A stretch of 64,000 nt of DNA from Alphaproteobacteria bacterium (GTDB lineage Bacteria > Pseudomonadota > Alphaproteobacteria > JAPOUT01 > G958296285): contig OZ242373.1 in assembly GCA_965209065.1 (NCBI GenBank), positions 467,533 through 531,532 on the forward strand, read 5' to 3'. Positions 1 to 13,922 of the stretch are shown piece by piece. The notes under the pieces are model-generated. The model ran no database searches and was not told the DNA's origin. It worked only from the letters and a program-made list of their open reading frames with translations. The translations under genes were made by a program, and so were the position numbers. Within the stretch, counting starts at the first letter, position 1. Each line of letters begins with the position of its first letter.

Positions 1-3000
1 TTGTCTGACGGTGTTGATGATTATATTATCCCCTTTGATGAGCACATTACCAGTGACCGCTTCTCCATTGACGATGTTCGGCAAGCTAATGGCAAGCGCA
101 CCCTTGATAGAGAAGGCGGAGTTATCGTTCATCGTGATATTTGTTTCACCCCTAAAGGCAATGGTTCTATCAAGAGGCATGACTTCGCCACCGATGGTTT
201 GCCCAAGTATGTTGAAATCATTGCCCTCTCCCATAGTCAAGGTGCCTGAGATAAAGAAGGGGAAGAGACCACCATCAACAGACGGCAAGCCTTCTTCAGG
301 CAACTCAAACTCTAAGATGGAAAGAGGATTGCCGCCCGGCGGGACGATTAAGCCCTTTTCTAACACTAAGCGATTGGTAGCCGCAGGGTCGCCCAAGCGG
401 GCGAGCGTTAGCAGCAGGGCTTCTCTGCCTTGCGAAGTAAGCTCGGTAATGCTGTTTTCAACCAGCGAGGTTACTAGAAATTGCTTTCTTGTTTCTATGT
501 CTAGTTTTTGCGCGCCCAGCTTGGCTAATTCCGCCGCTTGGTCGCTTGTTAGGGCGGGGTTGCTTGAGTCAGCAATGTGGGCGGTAGCTATCGCTCTGAG
601 ATCATCTATTTTGCTATTGGTTGCGTCTGGCACAATTAAATCTAGCCTAGTAAGAATTTCGGTAGCAGAAAGCGGATAAATGTTTAGATCACCCCTAAAA
701 GGGCTGGCGGGGTCTATGCTAAGTGGCGTCAAGTCAGCATCAAAAGAAACACCATCAAAGCTATAGATATCGAAGTCACTCGCGAAGCCATCCTCCACCA
801 CCCCAGCTGCTTCAATGTGAACGCCTAAGGCGACGATGGAAGCGGCACTAGTAATAATGAACGTGCTGGTTGTTATTAGAGTAAAATAGCCCTGCACGAT
901 TATTTCGGCGTTACCTAAATTTGTATTCCCGCTTGTCGTAATAACCACCGAGCGTAAAAAAGTGATTTTACCACCAAGCACAGGAGTAGCGCCCTCGGCA
1001 GTTGTTATGGATGGCGTATCTATTACTGTTTTACTTCCTCCTATGAAAAAACCTCCAATAATACCTTCAGTTGCCCTTACAAATGCATCGCCATCATTTT
1101 CAGCACCCTGATCTGCATTTGCACTCACACGCCCTCTTGCGTCAAATATCCTTGCCGTTATAGTGATATTTTTAGCACTAAATAAACTGCTTGTTAAAGT
1201 GAAAGTATCATTTACATTGATAGTTATACTTTCGCTAAAGAGATGCGCAACACCAGCTCCGCCTATAGTCCTGCCCGTTTCGGTAATGCCGAGGGCTTCT
1301 AATGTGAGCGAAAAGGCTTTGATGACCCTGACACTTGACGGGAAAATGATAAAACCATCTGTGGCAAGGTCGCTGGGATTTGCAAGCTCGGAAGCGGTGG
1401 TGCGGAATGTTATGTCGTAGGCTCCAAAATCTAAAACGCCATCGTCATCAATGCTAAATTTCATAAACATATCATTATTGGCTAATAGGTCGGCAATATC
1501 TATATTGGCTTCCGTTACATCAATCACTAGGGCGGGGACCTCAAACCAATCGTAAGCCTCTTGCGGTTGTATGCCCAAATTGGTGATGGTTGGCTTGCCA
1601 CCACTCGGAATGACGAAGGTCGCATCAACACTTGAGGCAAACGACACATTCATTTGCGATAGGGCAATGGCACTCGCCGTTAGCACCACAGGCACGCGCG
1701 CAGCATCTGGCGTTGCGCCGTCCGTGCCGAAACGAATAACACCGATAGCACCGCTATTGCCAGCATTCACCGAAAGCACACCATCGCCGATGTCGATAAA
1801 GCCTTCAAGCGATATATCGCCCAGCGCGGTTAGCGTGAGGTTTTGGTCGCTCGGCGTTGCCTGCGCCACTGCCGAGCGTAGCGAAATACGACTTGCCGTT
1901 ATAATCGTTTCGCCAACGTTTCTAAATATCAGCGCGCCTTTCTCTGCGATAAGGGTAAGCGCGAAATAACGCTCTCCATTGGGGCTATCGCGCAGAACCA
2001 TTGGAATGCCAGAATTAATGTCCGCCTCTGTGGCGATGACGGTTAGGTCGCCAACCGCGTTATTGACAAACTTCGCCCAGTTAGGAATGCCGAAAGTCTC
2101 CGTGCCGAGATAGGTCAGCGAAAGGTCGCTGCCATAAGCAACAGAATTACCTTCCGCCTCAAATTCCATCGCCGTGAGCGAAAGCGCCGTCCTGCCTTGT
2201 GTAATATCAAAACTGGTCGGAATAATAATTTTGCCCGCCCTATAAACGACCGAGATTTCGTCAAGCGCAGCAACCACCCACGCAGGAATGGTGAAGTCCC
2301 CGCTGCCGGTATAAATAACCCTAAGCGAACGAGGTCTAACGGGGTTGGCGAGGCTCACGTCAAACTTCGCCGCCGATAGCGTGAAGAAATTGTCTAGCTC
2401 CAGCCCTACCGTGAGAAAGCCCGATATAGTGATTTGGTCGCTCGCCTCTAACCGAACAGCCGCCTCACTGCCCGAAGGGGACGCGCCCGCAGAGGTCAGC
2501 ACGAGGTTTGCGCCTTTTAGCGTTGTCGCCATATTGCGCGCAAACGCAATGCCCGCATGAACGCCAGAGGGCAGGGCATTCACATTAGGGGCAGCCGTTA
2601 AGGTGAAAGTGCCAGAGCCAATATCGAACGTGCCGCCGAGCAAAATATCACGCGCCGCAAGCAGCGTTAGGTTTTGGTTGCTCGATCTGGGCGTGTCGCT
2701 GGTTGAAAAGAGAATGATGGTTGAAGCCTCAAGCGTGGTCGCGCCACTGCTGGCGAAAAGCAGCTCGCCTTCCACCGCCACTAGTGCCAGGCGGTTGTCG
2801 CCTAAGTTTAGCGAAGTCGGCACGTTAATATCGGCTTTGGTTGCGGTGATGGTTAAATCGGCATCGCTGGTGCGCATCCAGCTGGGAATATCAAACGCAT
2901 TCGCGCCGACATAAATCGCGTTGAGCCAAGCCCACGTCCGCGCTTCACTGCCGGAAACACTGAAACTTAATCCGCGCAAGGTCAAAAAGCCATTGCCGAT

Positions 3001-6000
3001 GTCAAACCCGTTAGGAACAGAAATGCCGCCGTTAAGGTTCGTTATGATTAAATCCCTGTTCTCCAAAATCGCCCACGCGGGAATGGCGTAAGCACCATTT
3101 CCAGTATAAATAAGCTCAAGAGCTTCCACGCGTTCAATCGTGGGGGCGTTGGTGAGCGTGAAGCTTCCCGCTCTAAGCGAAGTGGTGGCGGCGGTTGCCA
3201 CGTTGAAAAGACTCTCATCCTTATCGCCGATGGTGAGCGTGAGTGCGCCACTGCCAATATCAAAAGCGCCGTTAAGCGTCAGCACACCCGCCGTAATAAG
3301 CGTGAGGGCTTGGTTGCTCTGCGTTGGCGTTTCGGTGGTGGAAGTCGCGGTTAGCGTGAGGTTGTTCGCGCGAATAGAGGTCGGCAGGTCAGCCGAGAAG
3401 TTAATCACATCGGAATTGATGCTGAAGTCGCCCGCGCCAGTGTTGAAAACACCACCGATATTAACCTCAAAGGCATCGATGATTTCAAAGTCTTGGTCGC
3501 TCGCCGCCGCGCTTCTGCCGTTAGAAATGAGCGTGACAACGCCGCCGAGTATGTGCGTTGGCTCCTCCTCATCAAAAGTGATAGAGCTACCCGCACCCGC
3601 AATAACCGTGAAGGCTTGGCGACCAGTGGAGAAAAAGCCGCCCAGCTTTACCCTGCCGCCCGCTATAACCGATAGCGGCGAACCTAAAGCTGTGGTCGAG
3701 AGGTCATAGCCTACGGGTATAATTTTTTCAACCGTTGTTATCGTTCCGAGGCCGGTGCCGCCATCCTCAAGGGGGGGGTCATAACTGGGGATGTCAGAAA
3801 AGAGCGCAATCTCATTTCCATCGGAAATAAGCTCAACGTTTCTAGCGCGAATTGTGCCAACGTCAGCCGAGAAATGTAAGCCGCCCTCTGCCGCCTTCAA
3901 GGTTAGATTGCCGTTGCCCAAATCTATAGCCGATATAACGTGAAGTGCCGACTTGGTTGCCGTGATAGATAAATTTTTACCAAAGCTGCCACGCAAAAAG
4001 GGAATAGGGGCATAGCTAGTGAAAGAGCGCTCTTCGCCTTTGGTGGTAGTGTAATCAAAAGTAGTTACTGGTTGAGTGGTGTCGCTATTGGAGAAGTCTT
4101 CGAGGCGGGTATTAAAAGAAACTGCATCTTCCACAAGCAAGAGGTCTTGCTCTCCATGATAGATGAAGGTAAAGTTTTGCCCATAGCGAGGGAAGAATAT
4201 GGCATCTTCAGCAATCTCGATGGTCTCTCTAACTTCAATGGTGAGATTGCCAGTAATGTTAATGTTTCTTAAATCAAGCTCATCTGCACGAATGGTGAAA
4301 TGAGCAGCTCTTACGGATGTCATCCAATTCCTAGGGTTAGGGGTGTCGGCTCTGGGTGAGCCGATGAAATCTATTTCTATTGACCCCCAGTTATACGTGC
4401 CAGTGTCTTCTGCCTGAAATTCGGAGGCGTTGAGGTATAGACTGCCCGAGCCAATGTTTAGGGTGTTAGGAACGACAATTTCGCCATCATCACCTTCATG
4501 GATAACCGATAAATCTGCATTCTCGCGTATCGCCCACGCAGGAATGGCGAACTCGTCTTTACCGCCGGTATAAATAATCTCGATAGCACCAAAAACAAGC
4601 GGGCTTGCATCTTCACCGCTCGAGGGGCCGAGAAGATGGAACCCTCCTCCACCCTTAATCGATAAGGTGCCATCACCAATATCAAAACCATCAGGAATCC
4701 GAATAATGCGAGAAAGCGGCGGCGCTCCTTGTGGGGAGACAACCGATAAATTGATGCCATCAATCATCGCCCATGCGGGAAGGTCGAAAACTTGGCTATT
4801 AGCGGTAACTTCACGTATAGCAATGAGGGAAACCGGGCTATTAGCAGTAATTATCGCGCCCTCTTGGAAAGTAAGATAATTACCCATAGCTTGTAGGTGT
4901 AGATTAAAGGAATCTCCGCCAAAAATAACGTTAGGAGCGTTGAAAGCGATAAGACCAAGACCATTTCCGCGCAGCTCTAATTGGGCGTTCAAATAAAACT
5001 GCGTGCGCGCTATGCTATAGGTGCCGCTTATGGTTATGGTTTCGGTGGCAGTGAGAGTTACGGTGGAAATAATTACACTTATTGGCGTATCGCCAGCAGA
5101 GGTGAGCGTGATATTCTTAGCAGTTAGTGAAGCACCACTTTCTATAAACGCGATAACACCTTGTTGAGCGTTCACGGTAAGCTCACCTGTTCCAAGGCTG
5201 ATAGAGTTTAGAGTGATATTGCCTTGCGTGGCGGTGATAGATAAATCTTTATTTTCACCGCCTCTTGCCATCCAGCCCAGCAAGCCGAAGCTATCTGTTC
5301 CTTTATAGGTGAGGTTTAGCGCGCCGCGGTTGATGATAGCGTCTGCACCCGAAAAGCGCGCCGCCAATAGATTTAGAGTGCCAGTGCCAATATCAAAAGT
5401 GCCTTCAAGGGTTAGGTCGCCCGAAGCATCAAGCGCGAGGGCTCGACCGCTTGGCGCGGGCGTGCCACCTGACGCAAGCAGGTAAATATCATTGCCCTTG
5501 AGCGAGGTCGCCATTGCGGTTGAGAAGTTTATCGGTGCGCCATCGCCCGTGCGCGTTAGGTTTCCTTGCGCGTCAAGGACATGCACTAGCCCCGACTCAA
5601 TGGTGATGTTGCCGCTTCCCGTATCAAAAGAACCGCCGAGCGTTACCGCTCCTGATGCCACGATGCTAAAGACCTTATCGCTTGGCGTGGGGACACCGCC
5701 TCTAGACATTAGGCTGATGTTATTGCCTCTTAGCGATAAGCCGTTTGAAATGGCGGCAATGTTGAAAGGGCTACTTGCGCCCGAAGTGGCAGTGATGTTG
5801 CCGCCCGTTCTTGTGAAGTTGCCGCCCAGCATTAGCGTGCCTGATGCTGTTATCGTTAGGTTTTGCGCGTTTTCTGTCGGGTCTATGCGGGTAGAAATGA
5901 GCGTGATGTTTCTCGCGCTAATGCTTGTTGCGCTGGTGGAAGAGAATTTAAGCGATGCAACTTTAGCAATGAGAATTAAATCTTTATTGCCGAGGTCGAA

Positions 6001-9000
6001 AGAGGTTGGCACCATTATATTGGCGTTGTAGGCCGTGACAGAAACAAGCTCGTTTTGCATCATCCAGCTAGGAATCACAAAGTCATCGCTCTCTAAGCCG
6101 CCAGTGTAGAGAATATGAACCTTATTCGAAGTAACAGCAGGCGCAGAGGCATAAGCATCCTCATTGTTGCTGTAGAGGCTTAGCTCTCCGCTACCGATGG
6201 AAAGCGTGCCGCTGAACGCATACAGACCCGTAGCAATAAGCGCGAGGTCTTGGTTGCTCGCGCGCGCACTGCCAGTGGAGGTGAGCGTAATATCGTTCGC
6301 CGCAAGTATGGTTCTTCTTTCAGTTGAGAAGTTTATCGGCGCACCCGTGATAGACAAATCACCCGTGCCAGCATTGAAAATGCCGCCCAGCAACACACCA
6401 CCCGAAGCCGTGAGCGTGAGGTCTTGGTTGCTTGGGGCAGGAGAAACGCCGCTCAACGAAAGGAGCGTCAGCTTGCCCGTAACATCAATGGAGGTCGGCA
6501 GGCTCTTGGAGAACTTGAAGGTGCCGTATTGACCAGCAGTAATAGAGAGGTCATTAGCGTTGGCAAAAGTGCCGCGCAGGGTTACATTGCCCGAAGCCGT
6601 GATAGATGTGTTTTGATTGCCGCGCCGCGTGCCACTTCTAGAGATGAGAAGGATGTTGTTTCCTGTAATGGAAGTCCTAGAGCTGCCGCCATCAAAGAGA
6701 AGCTGACCATCTGTGCCAGATGGCTCAAGCCGAACGAGAAGCAAGTTCAACTTAGAAAGAGAGAAGGAGGTAGTGAGTCTTGTGCCAGCCGCAATGACAA
6801 TATCACTGCCAATCGGAGAAGCAGAAGAGCGGAAGGAGGTGCTGAAATTGCCGCTCATCTCTATATCATTTCTCGCAATAATGTGAAGCGCGCGGTGGCT
6901 TGGTGCGGGTGCCGGACCTCTAGAGTGAAGATAAATGTTGTTGCCGATAAGATAATGCGTGGTCGTGCCGACAAAGTTGATGGGCGAACCCGTGCCAGAC
7001 ATAACGCTGATATCACCCGTGCCAGTATTTATGAGACCGGCGAGAGCCACACCACCGCGCGCGTTAATCGTCAGCGCATGGTTGTTGCTTGTGGAATCGG
7101 CGAAGCGTAAGGTGATGTTCTGCCCGCTTACGCTCAGCGCGGCAGAGCGGATAACATTATTGCCTTCGCGAATATGAAAACTGCCTCTGCCGAAATCAAA
7201 TTTTCCGCCAAGCGTAATCGTGCCGTTACTCGCAGGAATGAGCTTGACGCTTTGGTGGTTCGGACTCGATTTAGCCGAGAAAAGCGTTATGTTTGCCGCC
7301 TCAATGGTTGTCGTTTCGGTTGTGCTGAACATCAGCGCACCACGCCGCACCTCTATCGTTAATTTGCCCGTGCCAAGATTGACAGAGGCAGGAACAACCA
7401 GCTTAGCACTCGCATTACGCGCACCAATATAGAGGTCCTTGTCTTCCATTATCATACTTTGGGGAATAGTGAAACTGCCCGCGCCCGAATAAATAAAGCC
7501 GATGCCGCCCCTATCCACACTCGGAACAATGCCATCATATTCGGCGGCATCAGGAGGCGTTGTCCCGCCTAGAATAAGCAGCCCGTTGCCAATCTTCAAA
7601 TTAGCGTTTACGCTAATTTCGCCTGCCGCAATAAACGTTAAATTTATATCTCTAGCAAATTGAGTCTCTATTCCAGTCGCGATGCCTATATCATTCGCTA
7701 TGATGGTTGTGTTAATGCCGCTTTCAGAAAAACGCAAATCTTCTTCTATGGTGGCAGTAAAATCACCGCTACCTAAATCAAACGTGCCAGCTAAAGTGAA
7801 GCCGCTGTTAGTAGAAGTCGTTGTAATGGTGAAGTCTTGATTGCTCGGTATAGATATGCCGCCGCTAGAAGTAAGTTCCCCATCATTGGTTGTAATGTTT
7901 GTTGCGCGCGCGGTAGAAAGGTTTATGGGGAAGCGAGAACCCGAGCTAGCCTTGAAGTTGCCGTCTCCCGTATTAAAGTTTCCGCCAAGCGTTATGATGC
8001 CAGTCGCTCTTATGGTGGCGTCCTTGTCTCCTGTGGTGGGTGATGCCTTCGTGCCAGAGTTTAAGGCGATGTGGTTTCCTGTTAGCTTGATGTCGCGACC
8101 GGTTGTGAATTCAATGGCGGCGGCAGCCCCCGAAGTGATAGAGATATTGCCGCTTCCTGTTGCTAGAGGTGTGCCGAGGGCTATCGCGCCGCTTGCCGTT
8201 ATTGTAAAGTCTTGGTTGCTGGCGGTAGGGGTGCCGAAGTGGCTTATAAGCGTGATGTTCGCGCCATTAAGCGAGGTTGCCGTCTTGTCTGATAAAGTCA
8301 CTGTCGCAGTTGAGTTAGTGTTAGAGGTGGTTATGCTAATATGTCTGCTTCCTGTATCAAATTTTCCGCCAAGGCGCACACTGCTTTGGAAAGTAACGGT
8401 GAGGTCTTTATTGCTGGCGGTTGGTGTGCCAACGGAAATGAGGGTTAGGCGGTTTGCGGTAATCATTGTTTCGCTAGCTGTGGAGAAGTTAAGCGCGCGG
8501 GTTTGTGCTTCTAGTGTCAAATCTGCGACTGTTCCAATGGTTATTTCAATAGGCACATTGATGTTTGCTTTTGTCGCCACAACCGATAGGCTCTTGCCCG
8601 ATTCAATCGCCCAATCGGGAATGGATAAATCTGCGTTGCCGGTATAGATAATGCCTGTGCTGCCGCGCACGAAAAGGTCAAACGTGGCTTGAGGGAGAAC
8701 ATTTGAGTTTTCTATCGTCAAGCGACCTGTGCCGATAGTAAAAGAGCCCGTTATGGTAAGTGTGCCTGATGCCTTGAGCGTGAGGTCTCGGTTGCTGGCG
8801 TCGCCGGTCTTGATAGCAGAATTAAGAGTTAAATTGGCGGCGGTTATTGTGGAGTTTGTCTTTACAGATGTTGGTTGCCCCGTGAAGCTTATAGCTCCGT
8901 CTGTTGCTGCGGTAATGCTTAGGTTTTGGAGTTCCCCAGTGGATGACCCACTAGTGGGCGACCCACTAGTGGGGGATTGCGCTTTTATATTTCCATGCAA

Positions 9001-12000
9001 AAATATATTGCCACCATTGATAGTTGTCTCTTTAGTAAAAATTACCTCGTTAGAGTGAATAATTATACTCGACTTGTCATCTCCCTCACCAGCAAGCTGA
9101 ATATGGGACGAGCTAATAGTGATGATGCCCTCAAAAGCTTGAAATATGAAATAAGAACGGCTGGCAAGATGAATACCTGCTTCATCGCCAGAGCCGGTAG
9201 ATCTTGCGGTTAGGTTCATAGTTTTAATGGGGACGGAACTAAGGCTTTCGATATCGGTGGTGCTCAGAACCAAAATGCGATAGGCATCTATCGTAAGTGT
9301 GTTAGTTATCGGCTGGGCGACTTCAAGCACAACATTGGTGTTATTGGTGGTGGTAAGGGTAAGTTCTTGCCGATTGCTATTTCCCATCCAGCTTTTGAGG
9401 GCTAGATAGTTGTCCGCGCCCGCCGCCGCCGTGTAAGTGAGGGTGAGGTTGCGCGTGTCAATACTTGTAGGCGCTGGAGCTTGCTCGCCCGTGCCAGCAA
9501 AAGAAAGGGATACATCGCCACCTGAGAAAAAATAACGACCTGTCATATTAAGCACGCCCGATGCCGTAATGGTGAGATTTTGATTGCTATCACGTCTGGT
9601 AATAGATGGGCTTGCGAGGCTTATATTTCCTGCGGTAAGGGTTATTGGGTTACTTGTTGAAAAAATAAGACTCTTATCAGCCATAATAGTTAAATTACCC
9701 GTGCCAAGGTCTATAGTATGAGGCACGAAAACGTTTCTCAGTTGAGACTGAACGAGTAAATTTTTACCCTTCACAATTCCCCATGAAGGAACACCAATAT
9801 CGTTAGCCGGCTCGAGGCCCCTAGAGATAAAGCCGAAACCGCCTTTGGTGAATTTGTCAAAAAGGGCTTCATCAAAATATCTTCCTTGATAGGACTCCAT
9901 AATCAAGCTGCCGGTGCCAAGATTAAAAGCACCCTCTATGTTGAAAGCATCACTTTCAGCTTCTGGTTTGAGCGTGAGGTTGTTGTTGCTTGGCGTGGCA
10001 GTGCCAGTTGAAGTGAGGTTTATCCTCCTAGCCGCAAGGGTTATATCTTTATCGGTCGCAAAATTAATTGCGCCGACTTCCGCCGTTAAGTGTATGTCTG
10101 CAGAATTACCAACGTTTATAGAGTTGGCAACAAGGATATTTCCTGTGGCGGCGGTCACTCTTAAAGTTTTGCCGCTCACAACCGCCCATGCGGGAATCGT
10201 GAAATTACCCGTGCCAGTATAAAGCAGCAATGTTCTAGAACTGGAAATAGAGGGGGGCGCGGTGGCAAACACATCAGCACTAGAGCCAGATAAAATGAAA
10301 GACGATTCCGACCCAAGATCTATGCCACCTGCCTCCGTTATGGCAATCGTGCCGGTGGGGGCAAGCACCAAGTCTATAAAGTTGTTGCTTCCTTTTGTTG
10401 TGGAGGTGAATGTCAAATCTTTACCTGCAATGGAAACATCTGATGAGGAGTCTACGATGAATTTGAATTCTATTGTGCCGGCTGTGAAAGAGAAGTCGCC
10501 GCTTCCGCTATTAAAGTTTCCTTTGAGGTTCAGCTTGTCGCCCGACATTATTGTGACATCTTGGTTGCTTGCGGTCGGCGTGCCGATGGAGGTGAGGGTT
10601 ACACCTCCAGCGTTAAGGGTGACCGCCGCATCAGTGGCGAAATTAATCGCGCCGACTTGCGCCTCTATGGTGAGCGCAACCGAACCGATGGATAAAGACG
10701 GAACAATAATATCGCCTTTAGTGGCAGTTACCGATAAAGCTATCTCATCTACCGCCGCCCATGCAGGAATGGTTAAACTTCCGCTTCCTGTGAAAATAAG
10801 AGAAAGTTCGCCTTGAAATGTTATGGCAGGGGCAGCAGCAGACTCAAAGAGCTTGGTAGCAGAGCTTTCTAGCGTTAGACCGCCTGTTCCTATGGCAATA
10901 GTGTTGCTCAAGGTTAAAGAGCCAGCAGTGGTAAGGTGTAGATTTTTGTTGCTTGCGGTGGCGGTGCCGCTCGTGTTGAGCGTGATGTTTCCCGCAGCGA
11001 GCGAGTTATGACTTTCGCTTGAAAATTGTATCGGCGCGCCAGTGATAGACAAATCGCCATCGCCGAAATTGTAATGACCGCCTAAGAAAACCTCTCCCGT
11101 TGCGGTAATCGTGAGGTTCTGGTCGCCTAGTCCAAAATACAGCTCGCGCGTGGAAACGAGCTTTATCGAAGCCGCCGTGATGGTTGTTAGGGGTTTTATT
11201 GCCGCCCTCTGTTCTGCCGTGAGGGGTGGGTCGGGTTTTACCAAGAAGAAATGAATTGAACCAACTTGCGCCTCTAAGGTTAAATCCCCCGTGCCAAGCT
11301 CAATAGAGTTAAACACGTTAATATCGCTCAGGGTCGCGGTGATGGATAAATCCTTGTCGGCGTTTATCATCCACAGCTGAACGTTAAAGTTACTCGAACT
11401 CGTAGTCATCACCGTAGTTGCACCAGTATGCATAAAGGTGATGGGCTTCACATAGGATATTTTGCCTGAAAGGGTTAAAGATAAATCCCCAGTGCCGATG
11501 TTGAAATTGCCGCCGAGCGCAAAGTTGCCGGTCGTAATCGTTAGGGCTTGGTTGGTTGTGGTTGGCGTTTCGCTTCCAGAGATAAGCCTTACATTAGCTG
11601 CGGTAATTGCGGTTGCTGCGTCTGTGGCGAAAAGTAGTGCGCCAGCTTTTGCCTCTAGGCTCAAGTTGCCAGTGCCAATATCTATAGTGGGCGTGGCGGT
11701 TAAATCTATATCCGCCGTTGCCGCTATGACGGATAAACTTTCACCATCGGCAAAACTGGCACTCGTAAAGGCGAGGGGGGTATCGCCAGTATAGACAAAA
11801 GCGGAATCCCTTGAGGTAACAGAAGAAAAGAGAGCCGTATAAGCAGCAGCAGTAGCAGGGAATGTTGGGCTTTCTGCTCTAAAGGTGCCTCTGCCAATAT
11901 CAATAGAACCGGTTATGGTAATTGCGCCCGTTGCTTTTAACGTGAGGTCTCGTCCGCTTGGGGTAGATGTGTTAGGGCCTTCGAAGGTGATAGCAGGAGC

Positions 12001-13809
12001 AGTAATGGTGGTTGCTTTATCGGTAGCGAAGTTGAGCCTGGCGGGGTCAAGGTAAAGTAACCCATTTGCTCTTATCACACCACCGAGAGTGATCGTGCCA
12101 CCATTAAGGTGGGTAGTGCCGGTGTCATCAAATATAATTTCATTTCCGGCGATAAAGGTTATATCCTTACCGACATTAGCTGTTGAGCCACTGAAACGGA
12201 TATCATTTGTGGCGTTGAAAGTGAAATGGGATGAGCCGCTTGAGAATCCTTGATCAACACTCTTATCGCGTATGGTTATATTGTTGGCGCTAAGCGTAAT
12301 AGTGCCATTGTCGTCAGGGTGCTGGAACAAGAAAGATGATGTCCCGCCAGCGGATAAGAATAAATCGCCGGTGCCGACATTTATATCTTTGGTGATAGTG
12401 AGTCCTATGTTGCCAGCGGTGCTAACGGTAATGGAGAGGCTTCTGTTTAGCTCCACCATCCAATCGCGCACGGTGAACTGTGCGCTACTTCTGCTATCAG
12501 TTATCTCAAGGGCAGAGAGGTTCAAGGTTAAGTTGCTTAAAGTAGAGGGGAAAGCTGCGGTGGTTTGCTCCCACTTAAAGGTAGCCGCATTGATGATGTT
12601 TGCGTTTGTGAATGTGGGGAGTGCGCCACTGCTGATACTCACCACTTCGGCGGCGAGGGTCGCGCCAGAGAAAGTGAGCGCGGTGGCAGCAGTTAAAGTG
12701 AGGTTTTGATCCGTTCCCGTCCCGCTCATTGTTATATTTTGGTTGATGTTAATTGTCGGCGCAATGAGCGTTAGATTGCCAGCGGCTTTGGTGATAGCCT
12801 CATCAAGCGTTATCGATGTGCCTGCCGCCAGCGAAACATCGCCCGCAAAAGCCGCGATAGACGCCGCCGAAATAACAAAATCACCCGTGCCATCGTCCGC
12901 TAGAACTGCGCCATCGCTGACTTCGCCATTATTATTGGTCGTCTCTGTGTCAATCGTGATGGTGTCAGGGTCAAGCAGTAGCTCCCCCGCTTTCACTTTC
13001 GATAGAGCAAACGAGGCTAAATGCTGCTTGCCCGATATTTCAACAAATCCACTTGATGCATCTATATTGCCTTGAAAATTCGTGTTGCCGTCCGACCAAA
13101 TAATCACGCGCGGTGACTCTATGAACGCGCCCGACTCCACAATCGTTCTTTGCGCGTTAGCAATAGCTCCCTTGCCTTGAAAACCACCCCCAACTAAAAC
13201 TTCTTTATTCGCCGTTAGGGTAGCCGTTGAGCCAAGCCTCACTTCGCCCGCACCCTCTACAATGATACTCTGCGCCTCAATGACACCGCCAACATTGACA
13301 ACGCTATTATTCGCTAAACTCTGTAAATGAACCTCGCCCGAAAGCGCAGTAATAACGCCATCTGCCCGAACCGCGCCAGCACTTGTGCCTGAGGCAGACG
13401 CACTCGCCAGCAAGCCGCCAACATTCACCACAGAACCCGCGCTAAACTCCACACCCGCAGGATTCTCCAACGAAACCCGACCATTCGCCGTTAATGTGCC
13501 TGCTATGGTCGTGCCGCCGCCGTTCCTCACTTTTATCGAAATTAACGCAGAAGCAGAGGGCTGCGCTATATCCACGACCTCATTTTTCGCAATGTCAAAA
13601 CTCTCCCAGCTCGTGCCGAGATAAGCACTATTTTGCTTTATCTGCAAAGGGTTAGTGAGGTCGCCCGCACCCTGCGTGACTCTGCCGCCACTCGGCGCCG
13701 CGAAAGCTCCGCCAAACGAAGTTGATGCCAAAAAAGCAAGCAAAACAAGCGGCTTTCCCGCTCTATTGCCCACTCTACTTATTAAGCGCATAGCTGGTCT
13801 TGGATACAT
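1..13809 (-). CDS. Giant filamentous-haemagglutinin-like (TpsA-type) secreted beta-helical repeat protein; 3' end cut by the window edge (>=4603 codons)
   Basis: Absent from the ORF track because there is no in-window stop. Plus-strand triplets in register 1,4,7... contain no TTA/CTA/TCA anywhere from 1 to 13809, so the minus frame is open; CTA and TTA appear in that register immediately upstream of the start. ATG at 13809 (in-frame alternative 13791) follows AGGGAGGA (13813-13820). The N-terminus reads MYPRPAMRLISRVGNRAGKPLVLLAFLASTSFGGAFAAPSGG, then TPS-domain motifs: SWESFDI, TLTANGRVSLENPAGVEFSAGSVVNVGGLLAS, VIIWSDGNTNFQGNI, GFVEISGK, LLLDPDTITI. At least 24 rungs of type T-P-T-A-S-N-Q-D-L-T follow. 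Confidence 0.9.
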   Translation of the reverse strand, partial: MYPRPAMRLISRVGNRAGKPLVLLAFLASTSFGGAFAAPSGGRVTQGAGDLTNPLQIKQNSAYLGTSWESFDIAKNEVVDIAQPSASALISIKVRNGGGTTIAGTLTANGRVSLENPAGVEFSAGSVVNVGGLLASASASGTSAGAVRADGVITALSGEVHLQSLANNSVVNVGGVIEAQSIIVEGAGEVRLGSTATLTANKEVLVGGGFQGKGAIANAQRTIVESGAFIESPRVIIWSDGNTNFQGNIDASSGFVEISGKQHLASFALSKVKAGELLLDPDTITIDTETTNNNGEVSDGAVLADDGTGDFVISAASIAAFAGDVSLAAGTSITLDEAITKAAGNLTLIAPTININQNITMSGTGTDQNLTLTAATALTFSGATLAAEVVSISSGALPTFTNANIINAATFKWEQTTAAFPSTLSNLTLNLSALEITDSRSSAQFTVRDWMVELNRSLSITVSTAGNIGLTITKDINVGTGDLFLSAGGTSSFLFQHPDDNGTITLSANNITIRDKSVDQGFSSGSSHFTFNATNDIRFSGSTANVGKDITFIAGNEIIFDDTGTTHLNGGTITLGGVIRANGLLYLDPARLNFATDKATTITAPAITFEGPNTSTPSGRDLTLKATGAITITGSIDIGRGTFRAESPTFPATAAAYTALFSSVTSRDSAFVYTGDTPLAFTSASFADGESLSVIAATADIDLTATPTIDIGTGNLSLEAKAGALLFATDAATAITAANVRLISGSETPTTTNQALTITTGNFALGGNFNIGTGDLSLTLSGKISYVKPITFMHTGATTVMTTSSSNFNVQLWMINADKDLSITATLSDINVFNSIELGTGDLTLEAQVGSIHFFLVKPDPPLTAEQRAAIKPLTTITAASIKLVSTRELYFGLGDQNLTITATGEVFLGGHYNFGDGDLSITGAPIQFSSESHNSLAAGNITLNTSGTATASNKNLHLTTAGSLTLSNTIAIGTGGLTLESSATKLFESAAAPAITFQGELSLIFTGSGSLTIPAWAAVDEIALSVTATKGDIIVPSLSIGSVALTIEAQVGAINFATDAAVTLNAGGVTLTSIGTPTASNQDVTIMSGDKLNLKGNFNSGSGDFSFTAGTIEFKFIVDSSSDVSIAGKDLTFTSTTKGSNNFIDLVLAPTGTIAITEAGGIDLGSESSFILSGSSADVFATAPPSISSSRTLLLYTGTGNFTIPAWAVVSGKTLRVTAATGNILVANSINVGNSADIHLTAEVGAINFATDKDITLAARRINLTSTGTATPSNNNLTLKPEAESDAFNIEGAFNLGTGSLIMESYQGRYFDEALFDKFTKGGFGFISRGLEPANDIGVPSWGIVKGKNLLVQSQLRNVFVPHTIDLGTGNLTIMADKSLIFSTSNPITLTAGNISLASPSITRRDSNQNLTITASGVLNMTGRYFFSGGDVSLSFAGTGEQAPAPTSIDTRNLTLTYTAAAGADNYLALKSWMGNSNRQELTLTTTNNTNVVLEVAQPITNTLTIDAYRILVLSTTDIESLSSVPIKTMNLTARSTGSGDEAGIHLASRSYFIFQAFEGIITISSSHIQLAGEGDDKSSIIIHSNEVIFTKETTINGGNIFLHGNIKAQSPTSGSPTSGSSTGELQNLSITAATDGAISFTGQPTSVKTNSTITAANLTLNSAIKTGDASNRDLTLKASGTLTITGSFTIGTGRLTIENSNVLPQATFDLFVRGSTGIIYTGNADLSIPDWAIESGKSLSVVATKANINVPIEITIGTVADLTLEAQTRALNFSTASETMITANRLTLISVGTPTASNKDLTVTFQSSVRLGGKFDTGSRHISITTSNTNSTATVTLSDKTATSLNGANITLISHFGTPTASNQDFTITASGAIALGTPLATGSGNISITSGAAAAIEFTTGRDIKLTGNHIALNSGTKASPTTGDKDATIRATGIITLGGNFNTGDGNFKASSGSRFPINLSTARATNITTNDGELTSSGGISIPSNQDFTITTTSTNSGFTLAGTFDLGSGDFTATIEEDLRFSESGINTTIIANDIGIATGIETQFARDINLTFIAAGEISVNANLKIGNGLLILGGTTPPDAAEYDGIVPSVDRGGIGFIYSGAGSFTIPQSMIMEDKDLYIGARNASAKLVVPASVNLGTGKLTIEVRRGALMFSTTETTTIEAANITLFSAKSSPNHQSVKLIPASNGTITLGGKFDFGRGSFHIREGNNVIRSAALSVSGQNITLRFADSTSNNHALTINARGGVALAGLINTGTGDISVMSGTGSPINFVGTTTHYLIGNNIYLHSRGPAPAPSHRALHIIARNDIEMSGNFSTSFRSSASPIGSDIVIAAGTRLTTSFSLSKLNLLLVRLEPSGTDGQLLFDGGSSRTSITGNNILLISRSGTRRGNQNTSITASGNVTLRGTFANANDLSITAGQYGTFKFSKSLPTSIDVTGKLTLLSLSGVSPAPSNQDLTLTASGGVLLGGIFNAGTGDLSITGAPINFSTERRTILAANDITLTSTGSARASNQDLALIATGLYAFSGTLSIGSGELSLYSNNEDAYASAPAVTSNKVHILYTGGLESDDFVIPSWMMQNELVSVTAYNANIMVPTSFDLGNKDLILIAKVASLKFSSTSATSISARNITLISTRIDPTENAQNLTITASGTLMLGGNFTRTGGNITATSGASSPFNIAAISNGLSLRGNNISLMSRGGVPTPSDKVFSIVASGAVTLGGSFDTGSGNITIESGLVHVLDAQGNLTRTGDGAPINFSTAMATSLKGNDIYLLASGGTPAPSGRALALDASGDLTLEGTFDIGTGTLNLLAARFSGADAIINRGALNLTYKGTDSFGLLGWMARGGENKDLSITATQGNITLNSISLGTGELTVNAQQGVIAFIESGASLTAKNITLTSAGDTPISVIISTVTLTATETITISGTYSIARTQFYLNAQLELRGNGLGLIAFNAPNVIFGGDSFNLHLQAMGNYLTFQEGAIITANSPVSLIAIREVTANSQVFDLPAWAMIDGINLSVVSPQGAPPLSRIIRIPDGFDIGDGTLSIKGGGGFHLLGPSSGEDASPLVFGAIEIIYTGGKDEFAIPAWAIRENADLSVIHEGDDGEIVVPNTLNIGSGSLYLNASEFQAEDTGTYNWGSIEIDFIGSPRADTPNPRNWMTSVRAAHFTIRADELDLRNINITGNLTIEVRETIEIAEDAIFFPRYGQNFTFIYHGEQDLLLVEDAVSFNTRLEDFSNSDTTQPVTTFDYTTTKGEERSFTSYAPIPFLRGSFGKNLSITATKSALHVISAIDLGNGNLTLKAAEGGLHFSADVGTIRARNVELISDGNEIALFSDIPSYDPPLEDGGTGLGTITTVEKIIPVGYDLSTTALGSPLSVIAGGRVKLGGFFSTGRQAFTVIAGAGSSITFDEEEPTHILGGVVTLISNGRSAAASDQDFEIIDAFEVNIGGVFNTGAGDFSINSDVINFSADLPTSIRANNLTLTATSTTETPTQSNQALTLITAGVLTLNGAFDIGSGALTLTIGDKDESLFNVATAATTSLRAGSFTLTNAPTIERVEALELIYTGNGAYAIPAWAILENRDLIITNLNGGISVPNGFDIGNGFLTLRGLSFSVSGSEARTWAWLNAIYVGANAFDIPSWMRTSDADLTITATKADINVPTSLNLGDNRLALVAVEGELLFASSGATTLEASTIILFSTSDTPRSSNQNLTLLAARDILLGGTFDIGSGTFTLTAAPNVNALPSGVHAGIAFARNMATTLKGANLVLTSAGASPSGSEAAVRLEASDQITISGFLTVGLELDNFFTLSAAKFDVSLANPVRPRSLRVIYTGSGDFTIPAWVVAALDEISVVYRAGKIIIPTSFDITQGRTALSLTAMEFEAEGNSVAYGSDLSLTYLGTETFGIPNWAKFVNNAVGDLTVIATEADINSGIPMVLRDSPNGERYFALTLIAEKGALIFRNVGETIITASRISLRSAVAQATPSDQNLTLTALGDISLEGFIDIGDGVLSVNAGNSGAIGVIRFGTDGATPDAARVPVVLTASAIALSQMNVSFASSVDATFVIPSGGKPTITNLGIQPQEAYDWFEVPALVIDVTEANIDIADLLANNDMFMKFSIDDDGVLDFGAYDITFRTTASELANPSDLATDGFIIFPSSVRVIKAFSLTLEALGITETGRTIGGAGVAHLFSESITINVNDTFTLTSSLFSAKNITITARIFDARGRVSANADQGAENDGDAFVRATEGIIGGFFIGGSKTVIDTPSITTAEGATPVLGGKITFLRSVVITTSGNTNLGNAEIIVQGYFTLITTSTFIITSAASIVALGVHIEAAGVVEDGFASDFDIYSFDGVSFDADLTPLSIDPASPFRGDLNIYPLSATEILTRLDLIVPDATNSKIDDLRAIATAHIADSSNPALTSDQAAELAKLGAQKLDIETRKQFLVTSLVENSITELTSQGREALLLTLARLGDPAATNRLVLEKGLIVPPGGNPLSILEFELPEEGLPSVDGGLFPFFISGTLTMGEGNDFNILGQTIGGEVMPLDRTIAFRGETNITMNDNSAFSIKGALAISLPNIVNGEAVTGNVLIKGDNIIINTVRQ
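8945..8974. repeat. 15-bp in-frame tandem duplication inside the giant gene (SPTSG x2), each unit carrying the palindrome CCACTAGTGG
   Basis: GACCCACTAGTGGGC (8945-59) and GACCCACTAGTGGGG (8960-74), 14/15 identical. The minus-strand reading is QSPTSGSPTSGSS. Confidence 0.85.
12940..13720 (-). other. TPS (haemagglutination-activity / two-partner-secretion) domain of the giant protein, about residues 30-290
   Basis: My own translation of the reverse complement gives VTQGAGDL..IKQNSAYLGTSWESFDIAKNEVVDIAQPSASALISIKVRNGGGTTIAGTLTANGRVSLENPAGVEF...GGGFQGKGAIANAQRTIVESGAFIESPRVIIWSDGNTNFQGNIDASSGFVEISGKQHL...AGELLLDPDTITID. This follows the known FHA/ShlA-type TPS pattern, with NPAGV in place of the NPNGI motif. 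Boundaries are approximate. Confidence 0.8.
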
Positions 13810-13844
13810 AAATCCTCCCTAATTTTAGTGCCTACTCACCATAG

Positions 13845-13882: not shown

Positions 13883-13922
13883 TTATCACTTTATTGCTTT
13901 ATTGCCTTATTGCTTTATTTTC
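13883..13922. repeat. 8-bp tandem array x5 (TTATCACT TTATTGCT TTATTGCC TTATTGCT TTATTTTC) spanning the stop codon of the propeller gene
   Basis: Read directly from the sequence. The period is exactly 8 bp. Each unit carries TTA, which is TAA on the coding (minus) strand, at 13883/13891/13899/13907/13915, so all three frames are covered. The real stop is 13907-13909. Confidence 0.85.

What the first reader, a model, noticed from the sequence alone, without database searches (positions are those of the whole stretch)
1600..12900. Two nested periodicities in the giant protein: ~19-aa rungs grouped in ~57-60-aa triplets, interrupted 15-16 times by an [IL]-Y-T-G-x-G-x-F-x-I-P-[AS]-W-[AM] boundary motif
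My translation shows a three-rung unit of about 57-60 aa, repeated many times:
- ..I-N-F-[SA]-T-x3-T-x-L-x-A-x-N
- I-T-L-x-S-x-G-T-P-T-A-S-N-Q-D
- L-T-I-T-A-S-G-x-[ILV]-x-L-x-G-x-F-[ND]-x-G-[ST]-G-[DN]-[LF]-S-I-T

I counted at least 24 S-[ND]-Q-type rungs, for example near nt 1850, 2675, 3315, 6250, 6425, 8212, 8405, 10560 and 11550.

A second motif containing the otherwise rare Trp recurs at irregular spacing of 65-460 aa. The Trp codons are at 2278, 2878, 3073, 4324, 4534, 4771, 5272, 6064, 8611, 9388, 9781, 10186, 10759, 11371 and 12460. A W-less copy, FIYSGAGSFTIPQSM, lies near 7450. Full versions include VIYTGSGDFTIPAWV, LIYTGNGAYAIPAWA, LLYTGTGNFTIPAWA, LIFTGSGSLTIPAWA and IIYTGNADLSIPDWA. 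Each is followed by x3-6-[DK]-L-[ST]-[IV]-T-A-T-x2-[DN]-I-x-V-P.

The YTG part recalls autotransporter PATR repeats. I do not recognise the IP[AS]W[AM] continuation as a described FHA repeat. The copies are diverged at the DNA level, so the modules are old and under selection rather than recent amplifications.
Basis: seen in the sequence. Interest (0 to 1): 0.65.

Follow-up and report, generated by a model that had tools for sequence, protein, structure and literature searches.

The report
Trp-marked coils in giant secreted fibre
The region encodes the repetitive shaft of a giant secreted fibre protein (two-partner-secretion type) from an uncultured small-genome alphaproteobacterium, built from about 62-residue units in which some copies carry a tryptophan-containing variant segment; this repeat type matches no curated family, but the protein class is well known.

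Summary
It is open from 13809 to window base 1, is at least 4603 aa long, and its C-terminus is cut off.

- **Protein class.** The N-terminus is a signal peptide plus a TPS secretion domain, so this is a TpsA, an FHA-like exoprotein.
- **Repeats.** Residues ~310-4036 are ~51 HMM-detectable copies of one diverged unit, spaced mostly 60-65 aa. Each unit reads as three coils of ~21, ~23 and ~16 aa.
- **Trp motif.** All 15 listed Trp codons and the W-less copy check out. One copy was missed (nt 2077), and at least two more W-less copies exist.
- **Reinterpretation.** The Trp motif is not an interruption. It is a longer (~24 aa) alternative to the short SNQ third coil, in phase with the units. W-to-W distances are integer multiples of ~62-66 aa.
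- **Structure.** AlphaFold models run through two junctions confidently and place the Trp in a short helical turn.
- **Databases.** No Pfam, NCBIfam or PDB model matches the repeats, and PATR is not matched.
- **Distribution.** Only 62 of 1.84 billion representative proteins carry the module, nearly all giant TpsA proteins.

The role of the Trp coil is inferred, not shown.

The parts
1..13809 (-). Giant TpsA-type exoprotein gene, at least 4603 codons. The 3' end lies beyond the window's left edge.
   Evidence: Single stop-free frame 1-13818 on the minus strand. No cysteine in 4603 aa. Covered by independent contigs of three runs. P0006 is 92% identical over aa 4-1729 and starts at the same Met.
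13699..13809 (-). Predicted Sec signal peptide MYPRPAMRLISRVGNRAGKPLVLLAFLASTSFGGAFA|AP
   Evidence: Read from the sequence: basic stretch, hydrophobic core, AFA-A site. By eye only; no predictor was run.
13060..13698 (-). TPS (two-partner secretion) domain with an NPxG-type motif (ENPAGV)
   Evidence: Pfam PF05860, 36.9 bits against a cut-off of 33.5. NCBIfam TIGR01901, 49.2 bits against 29.1. PDB hits to the TPS domains of EtpA (4e-15), HxuA and HMW1.
1711..12891 (-). Repetitive shaft, aa 310-4036. It holds ~51 HMM-detected copies of the unit LTITASGxLxLGGxFNxGTGD / LSLTAxxAINFxTxxxTxIxAxN / ITLxSxGTPTASNQD.
   Evidence: Iterated HMM and unit spacing. AlphaFold models are all-beta with short strands.
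6247..6420 (-). Reference unit, aa 2467-2524 (58 aa): three coils of 21, 22 and 15 aa, each opening with [LI]-[ST]-[LI]-T-x
   Evidence: Seed of the HMM. DSSP strands of model 2 are mapped on the sequence.
12349..12489 (-). W-coil module 1 (W453, QFTVRDWMVELNRSLSIT)
11647..11796 (-). W-less module (F692 in place of W; VYTGDTPLAFTSASFADGESLSVIAA).
   Evidence: HMM hit, 17.8 bits
11266..11424 (-). W-coil module (W816)
10657..10812 (-). W-coil module (W1020, LIFTGSGSLTIPAWA)
   Evidence: AlphaFold pLDDT 90-95, helical turn at AWA.
10081..10236 (-). W-coil module (W1211, LLYTGTGNFTIPAWA)
9679..9834 (-). W-coil module (W1346, degenerate: DIGVPSWG)
9346..9447 (-). W-coil module (W1477, weak: LTYTAAAGADNYLALKSWM)
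   Evidence: by eye. The unit HMM ends on LTLTYTAAA. Not found by the W-module HMM.
8503..8664 (-). W-coil module (W1736, IIYTGNADLSIPDWA)
7348..7509 (-). W-less module (S2121; FIYSGAGSFTIPQSM)
5965..6120 (-). W-coil module (W2585, ILYTGGLESDDFVIPSWM)
   Evidence: Model 2 has a helical turn at SWMMQ, pLDDT 87-94.
5164..5325 (-). W-coil module (W2849, LTYKGTDSFGLLGWM)
4654..4794 (-). W-coil module (W3016, QVFDLPAWA)
4426..4590 (-). W-coil module (W3095, IIYTGGKDEFAIPAWA)
4279..4380 (-). W-coil module (W3165, weak: DTPNPRNWM)
   Evidence: by eye. Not found by the HMM, and not conserved in P0002.
2971..3123 (-). W-coil module (W3582, LIYTGNGAYAIPAWA)
2776..2928 (-). W-coil module (W3647, AIYVGANAFDIPSWM)
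2170..2328 (-). W-coil module (W3847, VIYTGSGDFTIPAWV)
1945..2127 (-). W-coil module (W3914, LTYLGTETFGIPNWA).
1444..1605 (-). Different, terminal-type W module (W4091, SGGKPTITNLGIQPQEAYDWF...ANIDIADLLANN). It lies just after the repeat shaft, within the non-repetitive C-terminal part.
   Evidence: The same module is repeated at least 10 times in P0003 and occurs near the C-termini of P0001, P0002 and P0004.
1..1710 (-). Non-repetitive C-terminal part present in the window (aa 4037-4606). No family match.
   Evidence: Pfam finds 0 families even at E = 10 (protein 5).

Best explanation
Window 1-13809 (minus strand) encodes most of a giant type Vb (two-partner secretion) exoprotein from an uncultured alphaproteobacterium whose closest genomes are small.

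**Architecture.** After the signal peptide and TPS domain comes a Cys-free shaft of about 3700 aa. It is predicted to fold into one continuous beta-solenoid of roughly 180 coils, about 85 nm long at 0.48 nm per coil. The evolutionary repeat is a unit of about 62 aa made of three differentiated coils:
- a 21-aa coil, LTITASGxLxLGGxFNxGTGD;
- a 22-24-aa coil, LSLTAxxAINFxTxxxTxIxAxN;
- a short 15-17-aa coil, ITLxSxGTPTASNQD.

**The Trp motif.** In about 18 of the units the short third coil is replaced by a full-size coil of about 24 aa, LxLIYTGxGxFxIPAWAxxxxKD. The Pro-x-Trp part forms a short helical turn where the third strand would be. The coil before it is loosened and carries a small helix. 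The coil after it takes a special form, LSVTATxxDIxVPxSxDLGTG. So the Trp motif is an in-phase variant coil, not a break, and the distances between copies are whole numbers of units.

**Proposed role (inferred, not shown).** The invariant Trp and its hydrophobic neighbours (Y/F, F, I, P) fill the wider cross-section of this coil. They would act as structural keystones that lock register and re-nucleate folding as the very long, self-similar chain emerges from its TpsB pore. The fibre as a whole would act as a surface adhesin or spacer in a probably host-associated bacterium.
For: **TpsA identity.**
- TPS domain found by Pfam, NCBIfam and PDB search.
- Zero cysteines in 4603 aa.
- Established knowledge for the family: TpsA proteins form right-handed three-sheet beta-helices whose progressive folding is thought to drive secretion, and FHA is built on a 19-residue repeat (review PMC5422565).

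**Unit.**
- 51 HMM copies, with a spacing mode of 60-65 aa.
- Each unit has three [LI]-[ST]-[LI]-T-x strands spaced 21, 22 and 15 aa apart, matching the DSSP strands of the AlphaFold model.
- Autocorrelation peaks at lags 21-24.

**The W coil occupies the third-coil slot.**
- The unit HMM's last strand aligns to LTYKG, LTYLG and VMTTS of the W copies.
- hhalign of the W-module profile against the SNQ profile gives probability 92.8, with W+2..W+6 aligned on SNQ and D-L-S-V-T-A on D-L-T-L-T-A.
- W-to-W spacing is quantised: window u = 66, p = 0.036; P0001 u = 62 and P0004 u = 62.5, p < 0.0005; pooled p < 0.0005.

**Continuity.**
- The model of aa 2404-2915 spans two W coils with pLDDT 87.8 and pTM 0.86. 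Helical turns fall exactly at SWMMQ and GWMA.

**Constraint.**
- Trp is identical at 8 of 9 aligned junctions in P0002, where overall identity over window positions in that alignment is 41% (blastp: 37%), and at all 6 W junctions (plus F692 of the W-less copy) in P0006.
- Trp followed by [MA] and then R/K-x-L-S-[IL]-T persists in family members only about 22-25% identical that lack YTG and IP.
Against: - I could not measure the number of residues per turn, the handedness, the burial of Trp or any kink. The three-coils-per-unit reading rests on strand patterns, and six DSSP strands per unit could in principle be two 31-aa coils.
- Foldseek found no significant PDB match. The best E-values were 0.3 and 0.44, with TM-scores of 0.1-0.36. 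The hit lists are mostly beta-helices but prove nothing.
- The MSAs for AlphaFold were built from paralogous repeats of the same protein, which may bias the models towards a regular solenoid.
- The W coil as a whole is no more conserved than the rest of the shaft: 40.7% against 40.8% identity to P0002.
- No TpsB gene lies in the 50 kb of the window upstream of the gene, nor next to a tandem array of relatives.
- The folding/register role is pure inference.
Confidence: 0.6

Rival explanations
1. The W coils are repeated ligand-binding sites. The Tyr/Phe/Trp/Pro cluster would form an exposed aromatic platform, for example for host glycans, making the fibre a multivalent lectin-like adhesin. EtpA's C-terminal repeat modules work this way.
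For: - Aromatic residues are otherwise scarce in the shaft (W 0.5%, Y 1.3%) and are concentrated in this motif.
- The EtpA repeat modules mediate blood-group-A glycan binding (PMC11463764), and EtpA's TPS domain is the best PDB match.
- The window also encodes Sel1-repeat proteins, which are often seen in host-associated bacteria (my own knowledge; the domains are).
Against: - The only residue kept across the whole family is the Trp with the following hydrophobic residue. Y, F and IP are clade-specific. This fits a packing role better than a conserved binding pocket.
- The copies sit at unit-quantised positions, as expected of a structural variant.
- There are no binding data, and no surface geometry could be computed.
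Confidence: 0.2
2. The W motif has no role of its own. It is the inherited edge of a larger ancestral super-module (a W coil plus several units) that was duplicated, and its persistence only reflects the general constraint on any beta-solenoid coil.
For: - Modules are bounded by W coils, and in P0001 and P0004 whole W-containing blocks are recently amplified, with near-identical copies at 62- and 120-aa steps.
- Identity of the W-coil region to the homologue P0002 equals that of the rest of the shaft.
Against: - The Trp itself is kept in 8 of 9 aligned positions at 41% background identity.
- It is also kept in lineages with about 22-25% identity where the surrounding motif has changed.
- Within the window the copies are only 26-48% identical to the reference copy, yet they keep W.
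Confidence: 0.15
3. The motif is an autotransporter-type PATR repeat or a known FHA repeat (Fil_haemagg / 20-residue HecA repeat) too diverged to recognise by eye.
For: Only the shared YTG tripeptide and the general Gly/Thr/Ser-rich beta-helix composition.
Against: - Pfam scans of the whole protein and of seven sub-segments at E up to 10 return no PF12951, PF05594 or PF13332.
- NCBIfam returns only TIGR01901, not the TIGR01731 repeat.
- Profiles of the W module and of the SNQ coil find no PDB chain.
Confidence: 0.04

Closest known systems
Bordetella FhaB/FHA and HecA-type TpsA adhesins (19-20-residue R1/R2 repeats; Pfam PF05594, TIGR01731)
   Same: N-terminal signal peptide plus TPS domain. 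Very long, Cys-free, Gly/Thr/Ser/Ala-rich shaft of short beta-strand coils of about 20 aa. Expected rod shape.
   Different: No HMM match to those repeat families. The repeating entity here is a differentiated three-coil unit of about 62 aa, not a single coil. Trp-containing variant coils recur at unit-quantised intervals. No linked TpsB was seen.
ETEC EtpA (PDB 8cpk, 8vba)
   Same: Best sequence match in the PDB for the TPS domain (E = 4e-15). A beta-helical TpsA whose C-terminal part consists of larger repeat modules with a binding function.
   Different: EtpA has four C-terminal repeat modules. Here there are about 51 units. There is no sequence similarity beyond the TPS domain, and Foldseek to 8vbb is not significant (E = 1.6-3.8).
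CdiA (FHA-1 / FHA-2 repeats, PF13332, VENN-delimited toxin)
   Same: Giant TpsA with two kinds of beta-helical repeat.
   Different: No FHA-2 match. No VENN-type motif in the window protein or in the close homologues. The full-length homologues P0001 and P0002 have no recognisable C-terminal domain. The window's own C-terminus is missing.
Autotransporter PATR repeat (PF12951)
   Same: Contains a YTG tripeptide inside a beta-helix coil.
   Different: Not matched by the Pfam model. It belongs to a different secretion class (type Va). YTG is absent from the distant members of this family.

Membership tests
TpsA exoproteins (type Vb / two-partner secretion substrates) | N-terminal TPS secretion domain (PF05860 / TIGR01901, NPxG-type motif) | tested here: met
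   PF05860, 36.9 bits against a cut-off of 33.5. TIGR01901, 49.2 bits against 29.1. phmmer hits to the EtpA, HxuA and HMW1 TPS domains.
TpsA exoproteins (type Vb / two-partner secretion substrates) | Sec signal peptide preceding the TPS domain | tested here: inconclusive
   The sequence looks like one, ending ...LLAFLASTSFGGAFA|AP. No signal-peptide predictor was available.
TpsA exoproteins (type Vb / two-partner secretion substrates) | Cognate TpsB (Omp85-family, POTRA-containing) transporter, usually adjacent | tested here: inconclusive
   Among the window ORFs that were scanned, the only Omp85 protein is a BamA-like 764-aa gene at 46525-48819. The upstream neighbour is an SGL/NHL beta-propeller. 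The downstream side is outside the window. A five-gene TpsA array in a relative has no TpsB within reach.
TpsA exoproteins (type Vb / two-partner secretion substrates) | Passenger folds as a long parallel beta-helix | tested here: inconclusive
   AlphaFold models are all-beta with short regular strands (pLDDT 80 and 87.8, pTM 0.71 and 0.86).
FHA repeat families (Pfam PF05594 Fil_haemagg, PF13332 Fil_haemagg_2; NCBIfam TIGR01731) | Match to the family profile | tested here: not met
   No hit for the whole protein at E <= 0.01, nor for seven segments at E <= 10.
PATR, passenger-associated transport repeat (PF12951) | Match to the family profile; occurrence in type Va autotransporter passengers | tested here: not met
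   No hit. The protein has a TPS domain, not an autotransporter architecture.
The uncurated 'W-junction' giant TpsA family defined here (62 representatives) | Several copies of the module ...x-W-[AM]-x(4-6)-[KRD]-x-L-S-[IVL]-T-A...I-x-V...L-G-x-G-x-L-x-L in a TPS-domain protein | tested here: met
   16 modules with the W part in the window protein. The profile finds 62 representatives of 1.84e9 at E <= 1e-3 and 35 at E <= 1e-10, mostly 2000-7800 aa with TPS N-termini.

The most novel reading that the evidence does not exclude
The shaft may represent a previously uncurated beta-solenoid architecture. It would be a three-coil 62-aa unit with a conserved Trp 'keystone' coil inserted at whole-unit intervals. 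The keystones would act as register locks or folding checkpoints, letting fibres of 100 nm and more made of self-similar coils fold correctly outside the cell. The family appears confined to a rare set of bacteria, several with contigs/genomes of about 1.6-1.9 Mb, that carry several such genes. In one relative these form tandem arrays of up to five with no linked TpsB.
Probability: 0.25. Interest if true: 0.6.

Novelty: new variant of a known kind. Interest (0 to 1): 0.4.

Why it matters
TpsA and FHA-like fibres are a textbook class, so the protein type is not new. Several things are less ordinary:

- About 95% of this protein, and of its roughly 60 known relatives, is invisible to Pfam, NCBIfam and the PDB.
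- The family seems restricted to a few poorly known lineages, including one whose closest genomes are about 1.6-1.7 Mb, where 14-kb-plus genes are costly.
- Its repeats have an unusually clear two-level grammar: a three-coil unit and a Trp-marked variant coil at quantised spacing.

That grammar gives a clean, testable handle on how extremely long beta-solenoids keep register during extracellular folding. It would also justify a new curated repeat family. It does not open a long-standing question by itself.

Tried and rejected
**Frame and strand.**
- Translating the + strand frame gives only stops. The gene is on the minus strand.

**Homologue searches that failed or led nowhere.**
- The search for homologous proteins with the W-module alignment gave nothing, and so did a 361-aa shaft segment. 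The word index is swamped by low-complexity words.
- The whole-protein query timed out.
- Only the TPS-domain query worked.
- A scan of GTDB genomes with a TPS alignment found no relative.
- Exact look-ups of the window's neighbouring genes and of P0007 in the contig index found nothing. I therefore could not recover the 3' end of the gene or the source record.

**Structure.**
- Foldseek against the PDB was not significant for either model.
- Model coordinates are not exposed to the scripting tool, so burial and kink could not be measured.

**Other analyses.**
- Profile self-alignment of the unit does not show significant three-fold internal similarity (E = 0.59). The rungs are therefore differentiated, not simple 19-aa repeats.
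- No RNA runs hold the sequence.
- Literature searches found no description of this repeat.
- PATR and FHA-repeat membership were rejected.
- The assembly-artefact idea was rejected by the contigs of three runs and by homologues.
Full report
**1. What is at the coordinates**

The opposite strand has a single stop-free frame from window 13818 down to base 1, 4606 codons long. The first ATG is at 13809. The ORF listing does not report the ORF because it runs off the window's left end, so the C-terminus is missing.

I number residues from the codon at 13818-13816, so Met = aa 4.

Short-read contigs from three public runs of one sample cover the whole gene at even depth with only scattered SNPs. 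A 1708-aa database protein, P0006, is 92% identical to aa 4-1729. The ORF is therefore not an assembly artefact.

**2. Protein class**

- Pfam finds only the TPS secretion domain, at residues 38-250 of the protein (36.9 bits, cut-off 33.5).
- NCBIfam finds TIGR01901, the 'filamentous hemagglutinin N-terminal domain' (49.2 bits against 29.1).
- A search of PDB sequences hits the TPS domains of EtpA (4e-15), HxuA and HMW1, and nothing beyond residue ~290.
- The N-terminus looks like a Sec signal peptide (by eye).
- The protein has no cysteine in 4603 residues and is rich in T, A, G, S, L, I and N.

It is therefore a TpsA, an FHA-like exoprotein.

The gene just upstream (13907-15499, same strand) is an SGL/NHL beta-propeller, not a TpsB. 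The rest of the window is housekeeping: GyrA, CysNC, GlmS, Dxr, RseP, BamA, LpxB, GltA and others, plus two Sel1-repeat proteins. No TpsB was found among the large window ORFs that were scanned.

**3. The organism**

The window's GyrA is 74-75% identical to two alphaproteobacterial MAGs. One of them is a closed 1.61-Mb chromosome. GyrA is at most 59% identical to everything else, the next best being Parvibaculum, Rhodobiaceae and Hyphomicrobiales.

The source is thus an uncultured alphaproteobacterial lineage with probably a small genome. That it is host-associated is only a guess, based on the genome size of its closest relatives and the Sel1 proteins.

**4. The unit repeat**

An HMM seeded on one 58-aa stretch (aa 2466-2523) and iterated on the protein finds 51 copies between aa 310 and 4036. 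Its consensus is LTITATGDITLGGSFDIGTGDLTLTAGGAINFSTSAATSITAGNITLTSTGAT, followed by PTASNQD.

- Start-to-start spacing of good copies is mostly 56-67 aa with a mode of 60-65. Larger values lie near twice that (126-139).
- Raw autocorrelation shows lag 2 (strand alternation) and lags 21-24 (z up to 5.5). It shows only a weak 62-70 signal, because indels blur the long period.
- Each unit contains three strands of the form [LI]-[ST]-[LI]-T-x, spaced about 21, 22-24 and 15-17 aa.
- At profile level the three rungs are not significantly similar to one another (E = 0.59). The true sequence repeat is the roughly 62-aa unit, and the mean rung is about 20.7 aa, not 19.
- Strict S[ND]Q occurs 12 times against 1.0 expected from shuffles. 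About 22-25 units end in a relaxed SNQ-type loop.
- DNA copies are 60-80% identical, and there is no DNA-level tandem array of the repeat units.

**5. The Trp motif**

Sixteen of the 23 Trp residues sit in ...[LI]-x-[LI]-[IL]-[YF]-T-G-x-G-x-F-x-I-P-x-W-[AM]-x4-6-[KD]-[DN]-L-S-V-T-A-T-x2-[DN]-I-x-V-P-x-S-x-[DN]-L-G-T-G-x-L-T-L-x-A.

- The W-less copy near nt 7450 is confirmed.
- Another copy has Phe for Trp (aa 675-724), and a further degenerate one precedes aa 3280.

**6. What the Trp motif is**

Three independent results show it is an in-phase variant of the third coil, not an interruption.

- *Unit HMM.* The generic unit HMM places its last strand (ITLTSTG) on VMTTSSS, LTYTAAA, LTYKGTD and LTYLGTE of the W copies.
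- *Profile comparison.* Comparing the W-module alignment (A1) with an alignment centred on SNQ coils (A4) gives probability 92.8 and E = 4e-7. The residues after the Trp align on SNQ, and D-L-S-V-T-A aligns on D-L-T-L-T-A.
- *Quantised spacing.* W-to-W distances are whole multiples of the unit. In the window they are 65, 67, 78, 129, 135, 191, 200, 204, 267, 385, 390 and so on (best unit 66 aa, p = 0.036 against uniform spacings scanned the same way). In P0001 and P0004 they are almost exactly 62, 124, 186, 247 and 314 (p < 0.0005). Pooled p < 0.0005.

The W coil is about 24 aa long against 15-17 for the SNQ coil. The minimal W-to-W module is therefore 65-79 aa.

**7. Predicted structure**

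Two AlphaFold2 runs used MSAs made of the protein's own paralogous segments.

- *Model 1, aa 955-1290:* pLDDT 80, pTM 0.71. The W1020 junction has pLDDT 90-95, and an aberrant unit (aa 1115-1190) has low confidence.
- *Model 2, aa 2404-2915:* pLDDT 87.8, pTM 0.86, no residue below 50.

Both are all-beta with strands of 3-8 residues. The only helices are 3-5-residue turns exactly at A-W-A or S-W-M-M-Q, and a small helix in the coil preceding each W coil. The high pTM over two junctions argues for one continuous rigid body rather than hinges at the motif.

*Caveats.*
- The paralogue MSA may favour regularity.
- Foldseek against the PDB gave no significant hit (best E = 0.44 and 0.3, TM-scores of 0.36 or less). 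The lists consist mainly of beta-helices, such as IgA1 protease, EspP, HxuA, EtpA, tailspikes and FHA.

**8. Is it a known repeat?**

- Pfam on the whole protein, and on seven segments at E up to 10, gives no Fil_haemagg, Fil_haemagg_2 or PATR. It gives only sub-threshold noise to other beta-helix families such as DUF2345 and G8.
- NCBIfam gives no TIGR01731.
- Profiles of the W module and of the SNQ coil find no PDB chain.
- Literature searches found no description.

**9. Relatives**

A profile of 13 W modules, searched against 1.84 billion representative proteins, finds 62 at E <= 1e-3 and 35 at E <= 1e-10. Almost all of the top 35 are 1100-7800 aa long, most of them with TPS-type N-termini.

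- *Close clade (P0001-4, 6, 7, 11, 12, 30).* It keeps YTG/WTG and IP-x-W.
- *Distant clade (P0005, P0009, P0010 and others).* These proteins are only about 22-25% identical to the window's. They have L-x-L-x-T-x-x-A-Q-T-[IV]-H-x-W-M-[IV]-x3-R-x-L-S-[IL]-T. The Trp and the following coil are the conserved core, while YTG and IP are clade-specific.
- *P0002.* It is colinear with window aa 2225-4606 at 37% identity. It reproduces the spacing pattern (266, 167, 82, 69..., 64, 197, 74), with Trp identical at 8 of 9 junctions. Yet the 27-residue W region as a whole is no more conserved than the rest (40.7% against 40.8%).
- *P0001 and P0002, full length.* They have no recognisable domain other than TPS. 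No VENN-type toxin delimiter is seen in the close clade.
- *Gene number.* Relatives occur in multiples. Three giant genes lie on one 1.69-Mb contig. Five consecutive TPS-domain giant genes fill much of a 68-kb contig, with no TpsB among them or within the 7 kb downstream.

**10. Mechanism**

*Shown.* The protein has a TPS-domain N-terminus, a repeat grammar, the in-phase nature and quantised spacing of the W coil, and family-wide conservation of the Trp.

*Inferred from family knowledge (PMC5422565).* The protein is exported through a TpsB pore and folds progressively outside the cell into a three-sheet beta-helix.

*My hypothesis.* The W coil is a full-size coil whose Trp, Pro and other hydrophobic residues stabilise a corner or core. 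It would serve as a keystone or register lock in a shaft of about 180 coils and about 85 nm.

*Rivals.* The motif could be a repeated aromatic binding platform, as in EtpA's lectin-like repeats. It could also be a neutral duplication boundary.

**11. Verdict**

This is an uncurated repeat architecture within a well-known protein class, so I rate it a new variant of a known kind, of moderate interest.

Noticed in passing
L083-L085 (ENA ERZ25069786, contig ctg49461, 68 kb): Five consecutive TPS-domain giant genes sit in tandem: 2390 aa, a frameshift-fragmented gene of about 3300 aa, 4091 aa, 2868 aa and 2297 aa. No TpsB/Omp85 gene lies between them or in the 7 kb downstream. Three further family members (P0001, P0105, P0007) share one 1.69-Mb contig.
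   Followed up: partly
window 13069-13552, and joints 11511->12733 and 12756->13070: Contig depth over the TPS-domain DNA is 28-50, against about 16 elsewhere. Contigs in two or three runs join across 1221-nt and 313-nt skips. This suggests additional near-identical TPS-domain paralogues or a shorter variant in the same sample.
   Followed up: no
window 1444-1605 (aa 4072-4125): A second, different Trp module (SGGKPTITNLGIQPQEAYDWF...ANIDIADLLANN) lies just after the repeat shaft, within the non-repetitive C-terminal part. It is single-copy here. It is repeated at least 10 times at steps of about 355-420 aa in P0003, and it is also present near the C-termini of P0001, P0002 and P0004.
   Followed up: partly
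window 8945-8973: A perfect 15-nt tandem duplication (GACCCACTAGTGGGC x1.9) encodes SPTSG-SPTSG inside an atypical stretch of the shaft. It is the only exact DNA tandem repeat in the gene.
   Followed up: no
window 37216-38208 and 38208-39665: Two adjacent Sel1-repeat proteins (330 and 485 aa). Such proteins are often enriched in host-associated bacteria.
   Followed up: no
window 13907-15499 (minus strand): An SGL/NHL, ScyE-like beta-propeller gene ends 98 bp upstream of the giant gene on the same strand, in the place where a TpsB might have been expected. It is possibly co-transcribed.
   Followed up: no
window 23249-26035 (GyrA); loci L001, L002: The closest genomes are two unnamed alphaproteobacterial MAGs at 74-75% GyrA identity, one of them a 1.61-Mb chromosome. 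Everything else is at most 59% identical. This points to an undescribed, probably small-genome lineage.
   Followed up: partly
P0002 compared with window aa 156-1081: The N-terminal shaft segment of the window protein, including the W416/W453 region, matches P0002 residues 3059-3930. Meanwhile window aa 2225-4606 matches P0002 residues 382-2779. The module order is permuted between the two homologues.
   Followed up: no
window 11-679 (+), 3140-3709 (+), 6424-7110 (+), 7841-8647 (+): Several ORFs of 180-270 aa on the + strand lie entirely inside the giant minus-strand gene. They are most likely spurious shadows of its biased composition.
   Followed up: no
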